Shown: in pieces, positions 43,300 through 47,519 of the stretch | Numbering within the stretch: the first letter of the stretch is position 1 | Layout: each line of letters opens with the position of its first letter | Source of the DNA: Myxococcota bacterium | GTDB lineage: Bacteria; Myxococcota_A; UBA9160; UBA4427 | Direction: 5' to 3' | DNA length: 64,000 nt | NCBI GenBank assembly: GCA_030748735.1 | Contig: JASMLK010000080.1 | Location: forward strand, 16,697-80,696 | Position numbers and translations under genes: made by a program | Notes under the pieces: model-generated | Database searches by the model: none | Told to the model about the DNA's origin: nothing | What the model saw: only the letters and a program-made list of their open reading frames with translations

Positions 43300-44094
43300 C
43301 TACTTGCGGAATTGCTTGAAGTCCGGCTTTCGCTTCTGCATGAAGGCCGTGACCGCTTCGATGTTTTCCGGTGAGCCGGCGAGCTTCATCATCAATTCGT
43401 CTTCGATCTCGCGTGCGGCCTGGATCGCGTCCTTGTGGGGCGCTTGCAGGGTCTGCTTGATGGCGCGCAGCGAAGGCACCGACCACTGTGCGATCTCGCG
43501 CGCTTTCGCGAGGGTCGAGTCGTGCAGCTCATCGTCGGGCAGGACTCGCGCGCACAGGCCCAGCTCGAGGGCGCGCGCCGCGTCGATCCACTCGGCGGTG
43601 AACATCAACTCGTTTGCGCGTTGTCGGCCGACGGTGGTCTGCAGCGTGTAACTGCTGGCGATCTCGGGCACGAGTCCGAGGTTGGCGAAGGGCAACCGCA
43701 TGCGAAGGCTTTCGCCGGCGTAGACGATGTCCGAGGCGACCGCGATCGTGCAGCCACCGCCGATCGCAACACCCTGCACACTCGAAAGCAGCGGCTTGTC
43801 GAATTCGAAGAGCGCGTCGACGCATGCGAAGAAGCCGCTCTTCTTCCCGTCCTTGCGCGGCGGTGGCGGTTCGCCGCTGAACGAACCGAGGTCGACGCCC
43901 GAGGAAAAGTTGCCGTCCGCCCCTGCCAGTACCACGACGGCCACGCGCGGATCGTCGCGTGCTTCGTAGAGGCAATCGGTGAGCGCGTCCCACTGTGCTT
44001 CGTGGAAGGCGTTCTTCTTTTCAGGACGATTGAGGGTGGCGAACAGCACGCCCTCGTCGTCGAGGTCGCGCAATACGAATTCGGATTCCGGCAC
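43300..44094 (-). CDS. Enoyl-CoA hydratase/isomerase (crotonase family)
   Basis: ATLNRPEKKNAF.., VVVLAGADGNFSSGVDL and GVAIGGGCTIAVASD are crotonase signatures. Confidence 0.9.
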   Translation of the reverse strand: MPESEFVLRDLDDEGVLFATLNRPEKKNAFHEAQWDALTDCLYEARDDPRVAVVVLAGADGNFSSGVDLGSFSGEPPPPRKDGKKSGFFACVDALFEFDKPLLSSVQGVAIGGGCTIAVASDIVYAGESLRMRLPFANLGLVPEIASSYTLQTTVGRQRANELMFTAEWIDAARALELGLCARVLPDDELHDSTLAKAREIAQWSVPSLRAIKQTLQAPHKDAIQAAREIEDELMMKLAGSPENIEAVTAFMQKRKPDFKQFRK

Positions 44095-44143
44095 CGGCAG
44101 CTCCTGGTATGAATGACACCGCCTCAGCAGCGGGCCGGAACCT

Positions 44144-44325
44144 TAGCCCGGATTATTCATGAACATCCGTAGCGAGACGGTGCAGATTCGTGCTCTGGCA
44201 AGAGAAATCGGCGTTCCGCCGCGCAGACGTGGTTCACCCCACGTCGAGCAGCGGGACGCCGATTTCTCTTGCCAGAGTGCGGAGATGTGCCGTCGCAGTA
44301 GGATGTTCATGAATAATGCGGGCTA
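44144..44325. repeat. Long imperfect inverted repeat (~75-nt arms, ~31-nt spacer with its own hairpin); MITE-like element or structured 5' leader
   Basis: Left arm 44144..44219 and right arm 44251..44325. Outer 25 nt TAGCCCGGATTATTCATGAACATCC / GGATGTTCATGAATAATGCGGGCTA differ by 1 mismatch. An inner 21 bp, CTCTGGCAAGAGAAATCGGCG, is perfect. The central hairpin is GACGTGG-TTCACC-CCACGTC (44226..44245). Confidence 0.7.
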
Positions 44326-44391
44326 GCAGCCCCGTGTTGCCCGCTGGGCTAGCTTGCCGCGCGCCCACCGCGCCCGGAGGTTCGATCCAGC

Positions 44392-45582
44392 ATGACGAGC
44401 TTCGACTACGCCGCTAGCCCCGACCCCATCCGCAACGACCTGGCCGATGCCCATCGCCGGCAGTGGCAACGCATCGCCAACACAGGCACCTGGCTCACCG
44501 GCGCCCAGCGGGTCGCCGTGGCGGAGGAAACGCGATGGGCGCGCGACTGCGCGCTCTGCCGCGAGCGCAAACGGGCGCTCTCGCCCTTCGCAGTCGACGG
44601 CGAACACGATCATGCGGGCGTTCTTCCGGCACCGATGGTCGACGAAATCCACCGTGTCACGACCGACGCGGCGCGCCTTTCGCAGAAGTGGTTCGAGTCG
44701 TTGCTCGAGCAGGGCCTCAGCGCCGACGCATACGTCGAGGCTCTCGGCGTCGCGGTCTGCACGATCAGCATCGACGGCTTTCATCACGCGATGGGACTGC
44801 CCGTCGAACCCCTTCCCGAACCGAACGACGGCGAGCCGACACGCGAGCGCCCCGACGATCTCGTCGAAGGTGAAGCCTGGGTGCCGATGCGCGCACCGAA
44901 GGGCCTCAGTGCAGAACTCGGCCTTCCGGCCGGACAGGCGCCCTACGTGATTCGCGCGCTCTCACTCGTCCCCGCCGAAGTCCACGCCTGGGATGACCTC
45001 AGCGCCGCCCAGTACCTGAACAAGCAACAGATGATGCGCTTCGAAAAGGTCCGCGCGATCGACCGCTCACAGATCGAACTCGTGGCCGGCCGCGTCAGCG
45101 CACTCAACGAGTGTTTCTACTGAACGACTTCCCACGCGGTGATGCTCCGTGCGAGCATCGAGTATTCGGGAAGTGGCGGGCAGCTCGGTGGCATCACAGA
45201 GGGTTCCAAGGCGGGTGACGCGGGCATCGAGCATGGCGAACGACTTACGGCCTTCGCGGACGCAGCGGTTTCGGGTGACCCGGCAGCGCTGGCTACTGCG
45301 CGGGACGCCCTGCGCGAAGCGGCCGGGTCCGCGGTCGTCGTCGACGCCGCCGGCGTGATCGGCAACTTCCAGCGCATGGTGCGCATTGCAGACGGCTCGG
45401 GGATCCCCCTCGACACCATGGTCGACACGATGTCGTCCGACATCCGCGAAGACCTCGGCCTCGAGGGCTTCGAGAGCCGCAGGCTCGCCGAGCAGGGTGC
45501 GCTCGCGAAACTGTTTGCGCCGGTTGCGCGCGGGGCTGCAATGCTGGGACTGCGTATCGCGGGCCGGCGCGGACGTCGCTAG
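44392..45582 (+). CDS. Predicted selenoprotein: AhpD/carboxymuconolactone-decarboxylase (CMD)-core protein, in-frame TGA at 45121..45123 (C-x-x-U-x-x-x-H)
   Basis: ORFs 44392..45123 and 45139..45582 share a frame (747 nt offset). Read-through gives ..VSALNECFY-U-TTSHAVMLRASIEY.., which matches the AhpD C-x-x-C-x-x-x-H spacing with the His located after the TGA. GGAGG RBS present. Confidence 0.75.
45141..45159 (+). promoter_or_regulatory. bSECIS-like hairpin downstream of the UGA at 45121
   Basis: UGA + 17 nt + GAUGCUC-CGUGC-GAGCAUC. 7-bp stem with a 5-nt loop whose second base is G. Confidence 0.6.
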
Positions 45583-46415: not shown

Positions 46416-47519
46416 CTATCCGACGCCCAGAACGCGCGCGGGGGCCTTTGCGGGGTCGCCGCGTTCGATCTCGGTGTTGGCTGCTCCGCCGAACGCATTG
46501 AGCCCCAGGCGTTCGCGAAAGTCGGCCGAGCCGTGGAGCGTGCCCTCGTCGAGCGGGATCCCGCTCGAGTCGGCGGTGCGAACGAGCCCGTTGAAGATGC
46601 CCACGATGCCGCAGGCTTCCACGAAGCCCGCTTCACCCAGCGTCTTTCGCACGGCCTCACGTGCGGGGTCCATGTCGTCGTTGCCTCGCGTGACGGCTTC
46701 GGCGAAACGCACGAGGGCTTCGCCGTGTTCGATGTCGGAGGCACCCTCCCCGCCCACGGTGGCGTCGAGATTCACTTCCTGGCCAAGCTTGTCGCTGCTC
46801 GCACGGAGCAGACCCACATGGGAGGTCGTTCAGTAGAAGCATTCGTTGACGGCGCTGACCCGGGCCGCGATGAGTTCGGCTTGCGGGCGATCGAGCGGCC
46901 CTCCCCACTCCATGTCGTAGAAGCCGCCCGAGCCGTTGCTGTACATCGCCATCACGTTGGCGAAGAACAGTTGGTTCGCCGACGGTACGAGCGATAGCGC
47001 TCGCGCAACGTTGGGCCCCGTGAAGGGATCGATCATGGGCACGTGGGCGCCTGCGTCGGTTGCTTCGGCGAGTCGGCCGCCGTCGGGTTCACCGGGCTGC
47101 GGGTCCGGCAGCGGTTCGTGCGCGCGCCCCAGGGCTTCGCTGTACGCATCGATCGCACTCATGCAGGCCACGATCGAGATCAGTTCGACGTACGCGCCGT
47201 CACCCAGGGCTGCGATCTTCTTCGCCGCCCACTCGGAATCGATCTTGTGCGCATCGGCCGCGATCGTGCGTGCGGCGTCGACCGCGACTTCGGAGAGACG
47301 GCCTTCGGCGTCCGGAAGACCTTCGCGCAACCACGACGGGTCACCCCGCTTCGCCCGCGTGGCCCGCGCCTGGCGCGCGATCTCGAGGCGTTGTTCGCCC
47401 GTGAAGTACGAACCCGCATTCGCGATCTGCTGCCAACTGGTGCGGTGGACCTGCTGGATCGTGTCGCGTACCGCGAACCCGTCACGGTCGTAGGCGAAGG
47501 TCGAATCGAAGGACGTCAT
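46416..47519 (-). CDS. Predicted selenoprotein: second AhpD/CMD-core protein, in-frame TGA at 46830..46832
   Basis: ORFs 46830..47519 and 46416..46817 are in frame (12 nt apart). Read-through gives ..VSAVNECFY-U-TTSHVGLLRASSDKL... Paralog of 44392..45582, with the same MTSFD N-terminus and NECFYUTTSH core. GGAGG RBS present. Confidence 0.75.
46795..46811 (-). promoter_or_regulatory. bSECIS-like hairpin downstream of the UGA at 46830..46832
   Basis: UGA + 18 nt + CUGCUC-CGUGC-GAGCAG. The loop is identical to the paralog's. One stem pair differs by a compensatory A-U to C-G change. Confidence 0.6.

What the first reader, a model, noticed from the sequence alone, without database searches (positions are those of the whole stretch)
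44144..44325. 180-nt imperfect inverted repeat directly upstream of the first Sec gene; mismatches are G-U compatible only on the + strand
Two arms of ~75 nt flank a 31-nt spacer that has its own hairpin. The element lies in the 297-nt gap between the crotonase gene and the AhpD-like Sec gene. The termini (ATTATTCATGAACATCC) are strikingly AT-rich for this genome.

In the divergent middle of the arms, all six transition differences I could align would be G-U wobbles if the + strand is transcribed. On the - strand they would be A-C mismatches. That hints at a structured RNA in the 5' leader of the + strand gene.

Alternatively, the perfect outer ends with flanking TA dinucleotides resemble a MITE of the TA-targeting kind. 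Each arm also carries the palindrome TTCATGAA, which could be a pair of protein-binding sites ~150 bp apart.
Basis: seen in the sequence. Interest (0 to 1): 0.55.

Follow-up and report, generated by a model that had tools for sequence, protein, structure and literature searches.

The report
Miniature transposon inserted upstream of selenoprotein gene
The 180-nt inverted repeat is one copy of a previously undescribed, high-copy miniature transposon (MITE) that landed recently in this promoter region; it is not a regulator belonging to the selenoprotein gene, though its hairpin does fold better on one strand.

Summary
The inverted repeat is real. It folds at -142 kcal/mol on the + strand (z = -19) and -124 on the - strand. 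It is a MITE.

- **Absent from orthologues.** Three orthologous crotonase/selenoprotein loci lack it. They carry an intact CTAG at the exact insertion point.
- **Many dispersed copies.** At least 109 related copies lie at unrelated loci in MAGs labelled Acidobacteriota, Deltaproteobacteria/Myxococcales and Gammaproteobacteria, with up to 21 found in one MAG.
- **Target duplication.** Copies are flanked by a 4-bp duplication of YTAR (CTAG or TTAA).
- **Parent element.** The 22-bp terminal repeat (CCCGGATTATTCATGAACATCC) also ends a 1.8-kb IS that encodes an IS1380-family transposase.

All seven G-U pairs of this copy recur in copies elsewhere. Of 76 complete copies, 73 fold better on the + strand. 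In the window's subfamily 95.8% of cells pair on + against 85.7% on -, and 21 pairs show changes on both sides.

The asymmetry is near-absent in the Acidobacteriota subfamily. Copies also show no orientation bias relative to neighbouring genes (19 co-directional, 12 anti). A strand-specific RNA or ssDNA constraint on the family therefore stays open, while a gene-specific leader RNA is refuted.

Verdict: a new member of a known kind, of modest interest.

The parts
44143..44146 (.). Left copy of the 4-bp target-site duplication (TTAG). It differs at its first base from the right copy and from the empty-site CTAG.
   Evidence: The empty site in orthologue L003 reads AACC-CTAG-CAGCC. Among 76 insertions the flanks are CTAG/CTAG in 27, TTAA/TTAA in 15, and direct non-palindromic repeats TTAG/TTAG in 2 and CTAA/CTAA in 1.
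44147..44322 (+). The MITE proper: 176 bp, CCCGG...GCGGG, with no protein-coding capacity beyond two mirror-image spurious 55-codon ORFs. The + orientation is defined by the left-arm motif ATTATTCATGAACATCCGTAGCGAG.
   Evidence: Absent from orthologous loci. It is 72-92% identical to copies at unrelated loci. At least 109 matches were found in genome contigs.
44147..44168 (+). Left terminal inverted repeat, CCCGGATTATTCATGAACATCC. It contains the TTCATGAA palindrome.
   Evidence: 21 of 22 positions are complementary to the right repeat. Together with the flanking TAG, it matches 25 of 25 positions at the right end of the IS1380-family IS in L007. The core is invariant across six ends of three element types.
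44169..44225 (+). Left arm of the long stem. It holds the family-conserved box CGTAGCGAG and the 'divergent middle' where most of this copy's G-U pairs lie.
   Evidence: The per-pair table shows that all 7 G-U pairs of the window copy are shared with other copies. Helix 3 has 16 pairs with changes on both sides within the subfamily.
44226..44245 (+). Apical hairpin: GACGTGG, loop TTCACC, CCACGTC. In most other copies it reads GGCGTAC...GTACGTC. The window copy differs by compensatory GG/CC in place of AC/GT.
   Evidence: The apex and its 3' flank CGAG are conserved in the consensus of all three subfamilies.
44246..44300 (+). Right arm of the long stem.
44301..44322 (+). Right terminal inverted repeat, GGATGTTCATGAATAATGCGGG.
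   Evidence: The same terminus ends the elements in L006 and L007. The Logan contig L002 begins at window position 44302, inside this repeat.
44323..44326 (.). Right copy of the target-site duplication (CTAG).
43300..44094 (-). Flanking gene: enoyl-CoA hydratase (crotonase). Its start lies 49 nt from the left target duplication (52 nt from the element proper).
   Evidence: PF00378, E = 2.1e-54.
44392..45582 (+). Flanking gene: AhpD-related selenoprotein with the CFY-U-T motif and TGA at 45121-45123. Its ATG lies 65 nt from the right target duplication (69 nt from the element proper).
   Evidence: NF041238 matches both halves. The translation reads ...NECFY*TTSH....

Best explanation
The repeat is a non-autonomous DNA transposon (a MITE) of 176 bp. 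It belongs to a large, undescribed family whose ~22-bp terminal inverted repeats (CCCGGATTATTCATGAA...) match the end of an IS that encodes an IS1380-family DDE transposase.

**Shown:**
- The element is an insertion relative to orthologous loci.
- It has many dispersed copies.
- Copies are bounded by terminal inverted repeats and a 4-bp duplication of a YTAR target.
- An IS1380-family IS carries the same terminus.

**Inferred:**
- Such a transposase, supplied in trans, bound the two repeats and integrated the element at a CTAG in what was a ~115-bp divergent promoter region. This happened after this lineage split from that of L003. One later C-to-T change produced the left TTAG.
- The hairpin potential and the + strand G-U pattern came with the element. 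They are properties of its subfamily founder, not adaptations of this leader.
- Any local effect on the genes is a side effect and is untested. Possibilities are pushing the two promoters apart, or adding a very stable hairpin to a 5' UTR if transcription starts upstream of or inside the element.
For: **Empty site versus filled site.** L003, L004 and L005 have the same crotonase/selenoprotein gene pair with gaps of 119, 95 and 131 nt. Their alignments jump from ...AACC to CTAGCAG exactly where the window carries the element.

**Other copies found through the spurious ORFs.**
- Translating the element's spurious 55-aa ORFs retrieved homologues of about 50-85% identity.
- Their contigs place the element next to a HAD hydrolase gene, inside an OprB porin gene, after a polysaccharide-export gene and in other contexts.
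- DNA identity to the window copy is 72-92% over the full length.

**Genome scan.** By my tally of the locus titles, 21 come from one Gammaproteobacteria MAG and 13-15 from each of three Acidobacteriota MAGs.

**Structure of the family.** There are 76 distinct complete insertions with a modal length of 182 nt. The 4-bp YTAR flanks include non-palindromic direct repeats.

**Link to an autonomous IS.**
- L007 carries a 460-aa ORF that matches NF033539 (IS1380 family) at E = 5.6e-114 and PF13701 at E = 4.3e-135.
- That ORF is bounded by TAGCCCGGATAATGCACGAA... on the left and ...GGATGTTCATGAATAATCCGGGCTAG on the right.
- L006 carries a 687-bp non-autonomous element with the same ends and CTAG/CTAG flanks.

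**Background from the literature.** Stable RNA-level hairpins (-98 to -130 kcal/mol) and compensatory changes are already described for bacterial MITEs (PMC3184786).
Against: - No transposase gene and no second copy lies in the 64-kb window. The source genome is not in the genome collection, so copy number and an autonomous partner in this organism are unknown.
- The link to IS1380 rests on one IS (L007) from another metagenome. It shares only the terminal ~25 nt. Its left repeat is more diverged (20-nt arms, 85% complementary).
- The window's two flanking 4-mers differ at one base (TTAG versus CTAG), as do those of L007.
- Plain decay of a selfish palindrome does not by itself explain why transition mismatches fall almost only on the G-U side in two subfamilies.
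Confidence: 0.9

Rival explanations
1. The family is a mobile structured-RNA (or single-stranded DNA) module. The long hairpin would be under selection in the + polarity. Wherever a copy is transcribed in that sense, as it would be in the selenoprotein gene's 5' region here, it would form an RNase III-type substrate or a roadblock that alters mRNA fate, in the manner of Correia/NEMIS or ERIC elements. This does not exclude the MITE explanation; it adds a function to it.
For: - 73 of 76 complete copies fold better on the + strand, by a mean of 15.4 kcal/mol.
- Subfamily means of the difference are -24, -30 and -7.6 kcal/mol.
- On the same 75 pairs in the window's subfamily, 95.8% of cells pair on + against 85.7% on -. 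One-sided changes that keep pairing occur at 13 pairs on + against 3 on -.
- 21 pairs show changes on both sides, against 2-6 in the slid controls and in 0 of 500 shuffles.
- Some substitution paths run through G-U intermediates, for example CG to UG to UA at columns 73/121.
- Fixed or shared one-sided transitions in subfamilies 1 and 2 favour G-U by 21 to 3.
- The apex, with a G-U pair, and the box CGUAGCGAG are conserved in all three subfamily consensus sequences.
Against: - Orientation relative to same-strand neighbouring genes is not biased: 19 co-directional against 12 anti overall, and 4 against 6 in the most asymmetric subfamily (crude ORF calls).
- The Acidobacteriota subfamily shows essentially no asymmetry by alifold (-71.0 versus -69.9 kcal/mol). 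Its shared transitions lean the other way, 3-4 against 9-10.
- Private, probably post-insertion, transitions are only weakly biased: 29 against 16 when the three subfamilies are pooled, and not significant within any one (p = 0.18-0.63).
- Most fixed G-U pairs in the window's subfamily look like C-to-T changes on one strand. Strand-biased deamination in a master copy could therefore produce the pattern.
- Both-arm changes in the terminal repeats are explained by matching a transposase.
- Arm-to-arm templated repair of quasi-palindromes could maintain pairing without selection.
- The scans found no promoter-like site, and only one weak terminator-like match inside the element on the - strand.
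Confidence: 0.2
2. A gene-specific cis-regulatory leader RNA (riboswitch, attenuator or selenium-responsive element) of the AhpD-like selenoprotein gene.
For: - The element sits 65 nt upstream of the ATG.
- The better-folding strand is the coding strand of that gene.
Against: - It is absent from all three orthologous leaders examined.
- It is present at dozens of unrelated loci, including gene 3' ends and the inside of a porin gene.
- No Rfam match was found.
- All of its G-U pairs are inherited from the family.
Confidence: 0.02
3. A pair of operator sites (the TTCATGAA palindromes, about 150 bp apart) for a host transcription factor that controls the divergent genes.
For: Each arm carries the exact palindrome TTCATGAA.
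Against: - The palindrome is part of the terminal inverted repeat. It is kept in most copies of the family, whatever the neighbouring genes.
- Orthologous promoters lack it.
Confidence: 0.02
4. A REP/RAYT-type or IS200/IS605-type palindromic element that moves as single-stranded DNA. That would naturally explain a one-strand hairpin bias.
For: The hairpin is strand-asymmetric.
Against: - The element has 22-bp terminal inverted repeats.
- It has a 4-bp target duplication, including non-palindromic direct repeats.
- Its terminus is shared with an IS encoding a DDE transposase of the IS1380 family.
- From general knowledge, IS200/IS605 elements and REPs lack terminal inverted repeats and make no duplication.
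Confidence: 0.02

Closest known systems
Bacterial MITEs in general, for example Chunjie of Geobacter, Correia/NEMIS of Neisseria, ERIC and YPAL of enterobacteria, and bcr1 of Bacillus (review PMC3184786)
   Same: - Size of about 100-250 bp, with no transposase gene.
- Terminal inverted repeats and a short target duplication.
- Many dispersed, mostly intergenic copies.
- Whole-length hairpin potential of around -100 to -140 kcal/mol.
- Compensatory changes between arms.
- Presence/absence differences between related genomes.
   Different: - The sequence is unrelated to any family found here: no Rfam match, no plasmid match, and no paper in the held library contains the terminal repeat.
- The target is a YTAR tetranucleotide duplicated as 4 bp. 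From general knowledge, Correia elements duplicate TA and Chunjie duplicates 9 bp.
- By their titles, the host MAGs span Acidobacteriota, Deltaproteobacteria/Myxococcales/Desulfarculales and Gammaproteobacteria.
IS1380-family insertion sequences (IS1380, IS1247, ISEcp1)
   Same: - The repeat equals the right end of an IS encoding an NF033539 transposase.
- The ends begin with CC. That this is typical of the family is from my recollection of ISfinder.
- The 4-bp duplication is close to the 5 bp listed for IS1247 in PMC3281130. From my recollection of ISfinder, the family makes 4-5 bp duplications.
   Different: - The element has no transposase.
- Both of its ends resemble the IS's right end.
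- The L007 transposase is at most 41% identical to annotated IS1380-family transposases on plasmids, so the parent is a distant branch.
- Strict YTAR targeting is not something I know for the classical members.
Eukaryotic piggyBac transposons
   Same: - IS1380 transposases are used as the prokaryotic outgroup of piggyBac (PMC10813416).
- From general knowledge, piggyBac inserts at TTAA with a 4-bp duplication and has CCC...GGG termini.
- In this family one subfamily is flanked by TTAA/TTAA, and the ends read CCCGG...CCGGG.
   Different: - The host is bacterial.
- CTAG is used as often as TTAA.
- Precise excision was not examined.
- The resemblance is a lead and has not been tested as homology of mechanism.

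Membership tests
Bacterial MITE | Small element (under about 500 bp) without a transposase gene | tested here: met
   The element is 176 bp. Its only ORFs are two mirror-image 55-codon ORFs created by the repeat. The surrounding region has no Rfam match.
Bacterial MITE | Terminal inverted repeats | tested here: met
   The repeats are 22 bp and 21 of 22 positions are complementary. They are conserved across 76 complete copies.
Bacterial MITE | Target-site duplication | tested here: met
   The family duplicates a 4-bp YTAR target: 27 CTAG/CTAG, 15 TTAA/TTAA, and 3 non-palindromic direct repeats. In the window the flanks are TTAG and CTAG (3 of 4 bases match), and the empty site in L003 is CTAG.
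Bacterial MITE | Multiple dispersed copies at unrelated loci | tested here: met
Further copies occur in metagenome contigs. Copy number in the source genome could not be tested.
Bacterial MITE | Presence/absence polymorphism at an orthologous site | tested here: met
   L003, L004 and L005 lack the element at the same gene junction.
Bacterial MITE | A cognate autonomous IS with matching termini | tested here: met
   The IS in L007 (1792 bp, IS1380-family transposase) ends in a sequence that matches the window's left terminus at 25 of 25 positions. Whether such an IS occurs in the same genome was not testable.
Bacterial MITE | Demonstrated mobilisation in trans | not testable with these tools
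   This needs a transposition assay.
IS1380-family derivative | Duplication length and end sequence typical of the family (4-5 bp; ends starting CC) | tested here: met
   The duplication is 4 bp and the ends are CCCGG. IS1247 is listed with a 5-bp duplication in PMC3281130. The CC ends and the 4-5-bp range as family traits come from my recollection of ISfinder.
Known RNA family (Rfam 15) | Score at or above a family's gathering threshold | tested here: not met
   The best hits are VA RNA at 24.2 bits (threshold 62) and plant miRNA precursors. These are generic long-hairpin matches.
Gene-specific leader or riboswitch | Conserved at the same position upstream of orthologous genes | tested here: not met
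   It is absent from all three orthologous leaders.
RNA-active MITEs (Correia/ERIC type) | Co-transcription with neighbouring genes and orientation-dependent processing of the RNA hairpin | tested here: inconclusive
   The strand asymmetry of the fold is strong in two subfamilies. There is no orientation bias relative to neighbouring genes, at 19 against 12. No expression data are available.

The most novel reading that the evidence does not exclude
The family is more than selfish DNA. Its long hairpin would be kept in one polarity by selection, as shown by G-U tolerance, compensatory changes, and a conserved apex and CGUAGCGAG box. That would make it a horizontally spreading structured-RNA (or single-stranded-DNA) module carried by a bacterial relative of piggyBac. 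The copy here would then place a -140 kcal/mol sense hairpin in the 5' region of a selenoprotein gene and change that gene's expression.
Probability: 0.15. Interest if true: 0.55.

Novelty: new member of a known kind. Interest (0 to 1): 0.3.

Why it matters
**For this window.** The striking repeat should not be read as part of selenoprotein-gene regulation or of selenocysteine decoding. It is a recent insertion that happens to split a divergent promoter region.

**More broadly.**
- This is an undescribed, abundant MITE family in uncultured Acidobacteriota, Deltaproteobacteria/Myxococcales and Gammaproteobacteria.
- It is tied to a distant branch of the IS1380 family, whose transposases are treated as the prokaryotic relatives of piggyBac.
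- Its piggyBac-like target (TTAA or CTAG, duplicated as 4 bp) and CCC...GGG ends offer a bacterial system for studying how that target specificity arose.
- The one-strand bias of its hairpin gives a concrete, testable case for whether MITE hairpins are selected as RNA.
- On the practical side, such elements can break assemblies, and their mirror-image ORFs get called as genes. That is how further copies were found here.

Tried and rejected
- **Rfam scan with a permissive threshold over 43500-45500.** It returned only sub-threshold generic hairpin hits.
- **First genome scan, with the exact window repeat CCGSATTATTCATGAACATCC.** It gave 0 hits. The source genome is therefore not among the species representatives, and this repeat variant (CATCC/GGATG) is rare.
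- **The same pattern in metagenomes.** It gave only L006 and L007. These nevertheless supplied the link to an IS.
- **Viral contigs.** 0 hits.
- **Plasmids, blastn.** No match.
- **Literature search for the repeat string.** Only unrelated primer hits.
- **Sigma-70 promoter and intrinsic-terminator scans.** No promoter-like site was found. Only a weak terminator-like site lies inside the element on the - strand. No claim of an outward promoter is made.
- **Strand-symmetric self-alignment of every copy.** Counting all mismatches gave G-U 309 against A-C 258. Loops and bulges dominate this count, so I replaced it with subfamily alignments and shared pair sets.
- **One global alignment of all 61 full-length copies.** It was too poor in the mid-stem to use.
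- **Comparing arm-to-arm complementarity within subfamilies (0.63-0.71, strict Watson-Crick) with arm identity between subfamilies (0.59-0.69).** The result is not decisive for concerted evolution.
- **tblastn of the L007 transposase against all loci held.** No further copy was found.
- **A 2-bp TA or 3-bp TAG duplication.** I considered both after the first few copies. I dropped them in favour of 4-bp YTAR once non-palindromic TTAG/TTAG and CTAA/CTAA flanks were seen.

Full report
**1.
- The sequence at 44144-44325 is an imperfect inverted repeat. The outer arms are 25 nt and 96% complementary. The inner arms are 47 nt and 81% complementary. A small apical hairpin lies between them.
- Its AT-rich 19-mer occurs only at the two arm positions in the 64-kb window; none is expected by chance.
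- As RNA the + strand folds at -142.2 kcal/mol (z = -19.4). The - strand folds at -123.9 kcal/mol.
- In the common register the copy has 70 Watson-Crick pairs, 7 G-U pairs and no A-C pairs.
- The flanking genes are as described. An enoyl-CoA hydratase gene lies on the - strand. A CFY-U-T AhpD-related selenoprotein gene lies on the + strand, with TGA at 45121-45123.

**2. It is an insertion.**
- The window is identical to a JGI metagenome contig over this region.
- The N-terminal part of the selenoprotein has hundreds of homologues.
- I fetched the loci of the three closest, at 88%, 82% and 81% identity. All keep the divergent crotonase/selenoprotein pair, but the gap is 119, 95 and 131 nt instead of 297 nt.
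- In the alignment the orthologues run straight from ...GCAACC to CTAGCAG... at the point where the window has ...GGAACC-TTAG-[CCCGG...GCGGG]-CTAG-CAG....
- That is an empty site against a filled site, with the tetranucleotide duplicated. One substitution has since occurred in the left copy.

**3. It belongs to a large dispersed family.**
- Because the element is a near-palindrome, it creates two mirror-image 55-codon ORFs. I used their translations as probes.
- The searches returned small 'proteins' about 50-85% identical to the probes.
- Their contigs carry the same ~182-nt element, 72-92% identical over its full length and with a well-defined orientation.
- The contexts are unrelated to this one: upstream of a HAD hydrolase gene, inside an OprB porin gene, after a polysaccharide-export gene, between convergent genes, and others.
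- A left-arm consensus that fits all nine copies (ATTATTCATGARSRTYCGTAGCGAG) was then scanned over the species-representative genomes.
- By their titles, the hits lie in MAGs of Acidobacteriota, Deltaproteobacteria/Myxococcales/Desulfarculales and Gammaproteobacteria. By my tally, 21 are in one MAG and 13-15 are in each of three others.
- There were no hits in viral contigs or plasmids.

**4. Anatomy of the family.**
- 76 distinct complete insertions were delimited. The modal length is 182 nt when the TAG...CTA ends are included. Short forms of 66-157 nt and long forms of 203-276 nt also occur.
- The flanks show a 4-bp duplication of YTAR: CTAG/CTAG in 27, TTAA/TTAA in 15, and the non-palindromic direct repeats TTAG/TTAG (2) and CTAA/CTAA (1).
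- The element proper therefore begins CCCGG and ends CCGGG.
- About a quarter of the insertions sit exactly on the stop codon of a neighbouring ORF (my count from the distance columns). Presumably this is because TAG- and TAA-containing tetranucleotides are otherwise rare in these GC-rich genomes.

**5. The parent element.**
- The exact window repeat found two metagenome contigs.
- L007 holds a 1792-bp IS. Its 460-aa ORF matches the IS1380-family transposase model (NF033539, E = 5.6e-114; PF13701, E = 4.3e-135).
- The right end of that IS is ...GGATGTTCATGAATAATCCGGG-CTAG. Its left end is TTAG-CCCGGATAATGCACGAA....
- L006 holds a 687-bp element with the same ends and CTAG/CTAG flanks. It carries a 147-aa Lys/Ala-rich ORF of unknown family.
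- The core TAGCCCG.AT.AT.CA.G is invariant over these six ends.
- The window copy's inner repeat variant (CATCC/GGATG) equals that of L006 and L007. Other members of its subfamily have GGTCC/GGACC instead. This both-arm change is most simply read as matching a particular transposase.
- The L007 transposase is at most 41% identical to annotated IS1380-family transposases on plasmids.
- The literature lists a 5-bp duplication for IS1247, a member of this family. It also uses IS1380 transposases as the prokaryotic outgroup of piggyBac.

**6. The strand asymmetry.**
- *It is a family trait, not a local one.* All seven G-U pairs of the window copy recur in copies at unrelated loci.
- *It is widespread.* 73 of 76 complete copies fold better on the + strand.
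- *It differs between subfamilies.* The full-length copies form three subfamilies:

| Subfamily | Host MAGs (by title) | Mean difference, + minus - (kcal/mol) |
|---|---|---|
| 1 (window-like) | Deltaproteobacteria/Myxococcales | -24 |
| 2 | Gammaproteobacteria | -30 |
| 3 | Acidobacteriota | -7.6 |

- *Formal counts for subfamily 1.* I counted the same 75 pairs on both strands. On the + strand 95.8% of cells pair; on the - strand 85.7% do.
  - Thirteen pairs on + vary on one side while staying paired, against three on -.
  - 21 pairs have changes on both sides. The slid controls give 2-6, and 0 of 500 shuffles reach the observed value.

**7. Limits on what the asymmetry means.**
- Subfamily 3 shows almost no asymmetry in consensus folding (-71.0 against -69.9 kcal/mol). 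Its shared transitions lean the other way.
- Private transitions are only mildly G-U-biased: 29 against 16 when the three subfamilies are pooled, and not significant within any one. Fixed or shared transitions in subfamilies 1 and 2 are strongly biased, at 21 against 3. The bias therefore seems to arise mainly in the lineages of the source copies.
- With crude ORF calls, copies between same-strand genes are co-directional 19 times and opposite 12 times. There is no sign that copies are kept only where the + strand is transcribed.
- A constraint on a + polarity single strand (RNA or DNA) remains possible.
- Strand-biased C-to-T change in master copies also remains possible.
- So does templated correction between the arms.
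- I could not separate these three.

**8.
- A leader RNA specific to the selenoprotein gene is excluded by items 2 and 3. The MITE alternative is confirmed and made more precise.
- Long, very stable hairpins and compensatory changes are already described for bacterial MITEs (PMC3184786). This is therefore a new family of a known kind.
- Its local effect is untested. The element separates the two divergent genes' upstream regions by 180 bp. The scans show no sigma-70-like promoter in the region. The selenoprotein gene's GGAGG box and start codon lie outside the element.

**9. Confidence.**
- That the feature is a MITE insertion: about 0.9.
- That its mobilising enzyme is an IS1380-family transposase: about 0.8.
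- That it has a selected single-strand function: about 0.15-0.2.

Noticed in passing
L018-L126 and L008-L017 (family-wide); window 44143-44146 and 44323-44326: The family's target and ends resemble eukaryotic piggyBac. The target is a YTAR tetranucleotide, TTAA or CTAG, duplicated as 4 bp. The ends read CCC...GGG. From general knowledge, piggyBac inserts at TTAA and has CCC...GGG termini, and IS1380 transposases serve as piggyBac's prokaryotic outgroup. TTAA flanks dominate in the Acidobacteriota subfamily and CTAG in the other two.
   Followed up: partly
L018, L026, L040, L042, L052, L058, L060, L062 and about 12 further loci: About a quarter of the insertions lie exactly on the stop codon of a neighbouring ORF (distance -3 in the table). 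The duplicated TAG or TAA serves as the stop, and the duplication restores it.
   Followed up: partly
L006:2058-2752: A 687-bp non-autonomous element has the same terminal repeats and CTAG/CTAG flanks. It carries a 147-aa Lys/Ala-rich ORF (2214-2657) with no Pfam match, so it looks like a cargo-carrying relative of the MITE.
   Followed up: partly
L013:2986-3167 (- strand): This copy is flanked by CCAG...CTGG instead of CTAG...CTAG. The two flanks differ at mirror-image positions and are not a direct repeat. A 4-bp duplication does not predict this. Templated correction between the arms, running into the flanks, is one possible cause.
   Followed up: no
L052:4979-5045, L100:4977-5042, L107:1281-1347, L113:4155-4223: These mini-versions are only 66-69 nt long. 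They consist of the two terminal repeats plus about 20 nt, are flanked by CTAG, and occur in the same MAGs as full-length copies.
   Followed up: no
window 44324-44331 and 44344-44356: The insertion site is the 5' edge of a leader motif conserved in all four orthologous loci: TAGCAGCC, then a variable stretch of about 12 nt, then CTGGGCTAGCTTG. It may be a promoter or an operator of the selenoprotein gene. The element leaves it attached to the gene.
   Followed up: no
L002:1 (= window 44302): An independent Logan assembly of the same sequence ends inside the right terminal repeat. This is as expected for a repeated or palindromic element that breaks short-read assemblies.
   Followed up: no
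L009:2682-3776 (also L010): Here the element lies between two ORF fragments of 110 and 201 aa that both hit the OprB porin family. It probably interrupts a porin gene.
   Followed up: no
window 46416-47519 (- strand): A second gene of the same kind lies 0.8 kb downstream on the opposite strand. Its 229-aa N-terminal part ends ...NECFY before a stop and is followed by a 133-aa ORF. An SDR gene lies between the two. In orthologue L003 this second copy is missing.
   Followed up: no
window 44159-44326 (+) and 44143-44310 (-): The element creates two mirror-image 55-codon ORFs. Both start MNI... and end ...RMFMNN(A/P)G, and the stop codon is the target TAG. Gene callers have predicted such ORFs as proteins in several public assemblies (P0121-P0131). 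These are spurious protein families.
   Followed up: yes
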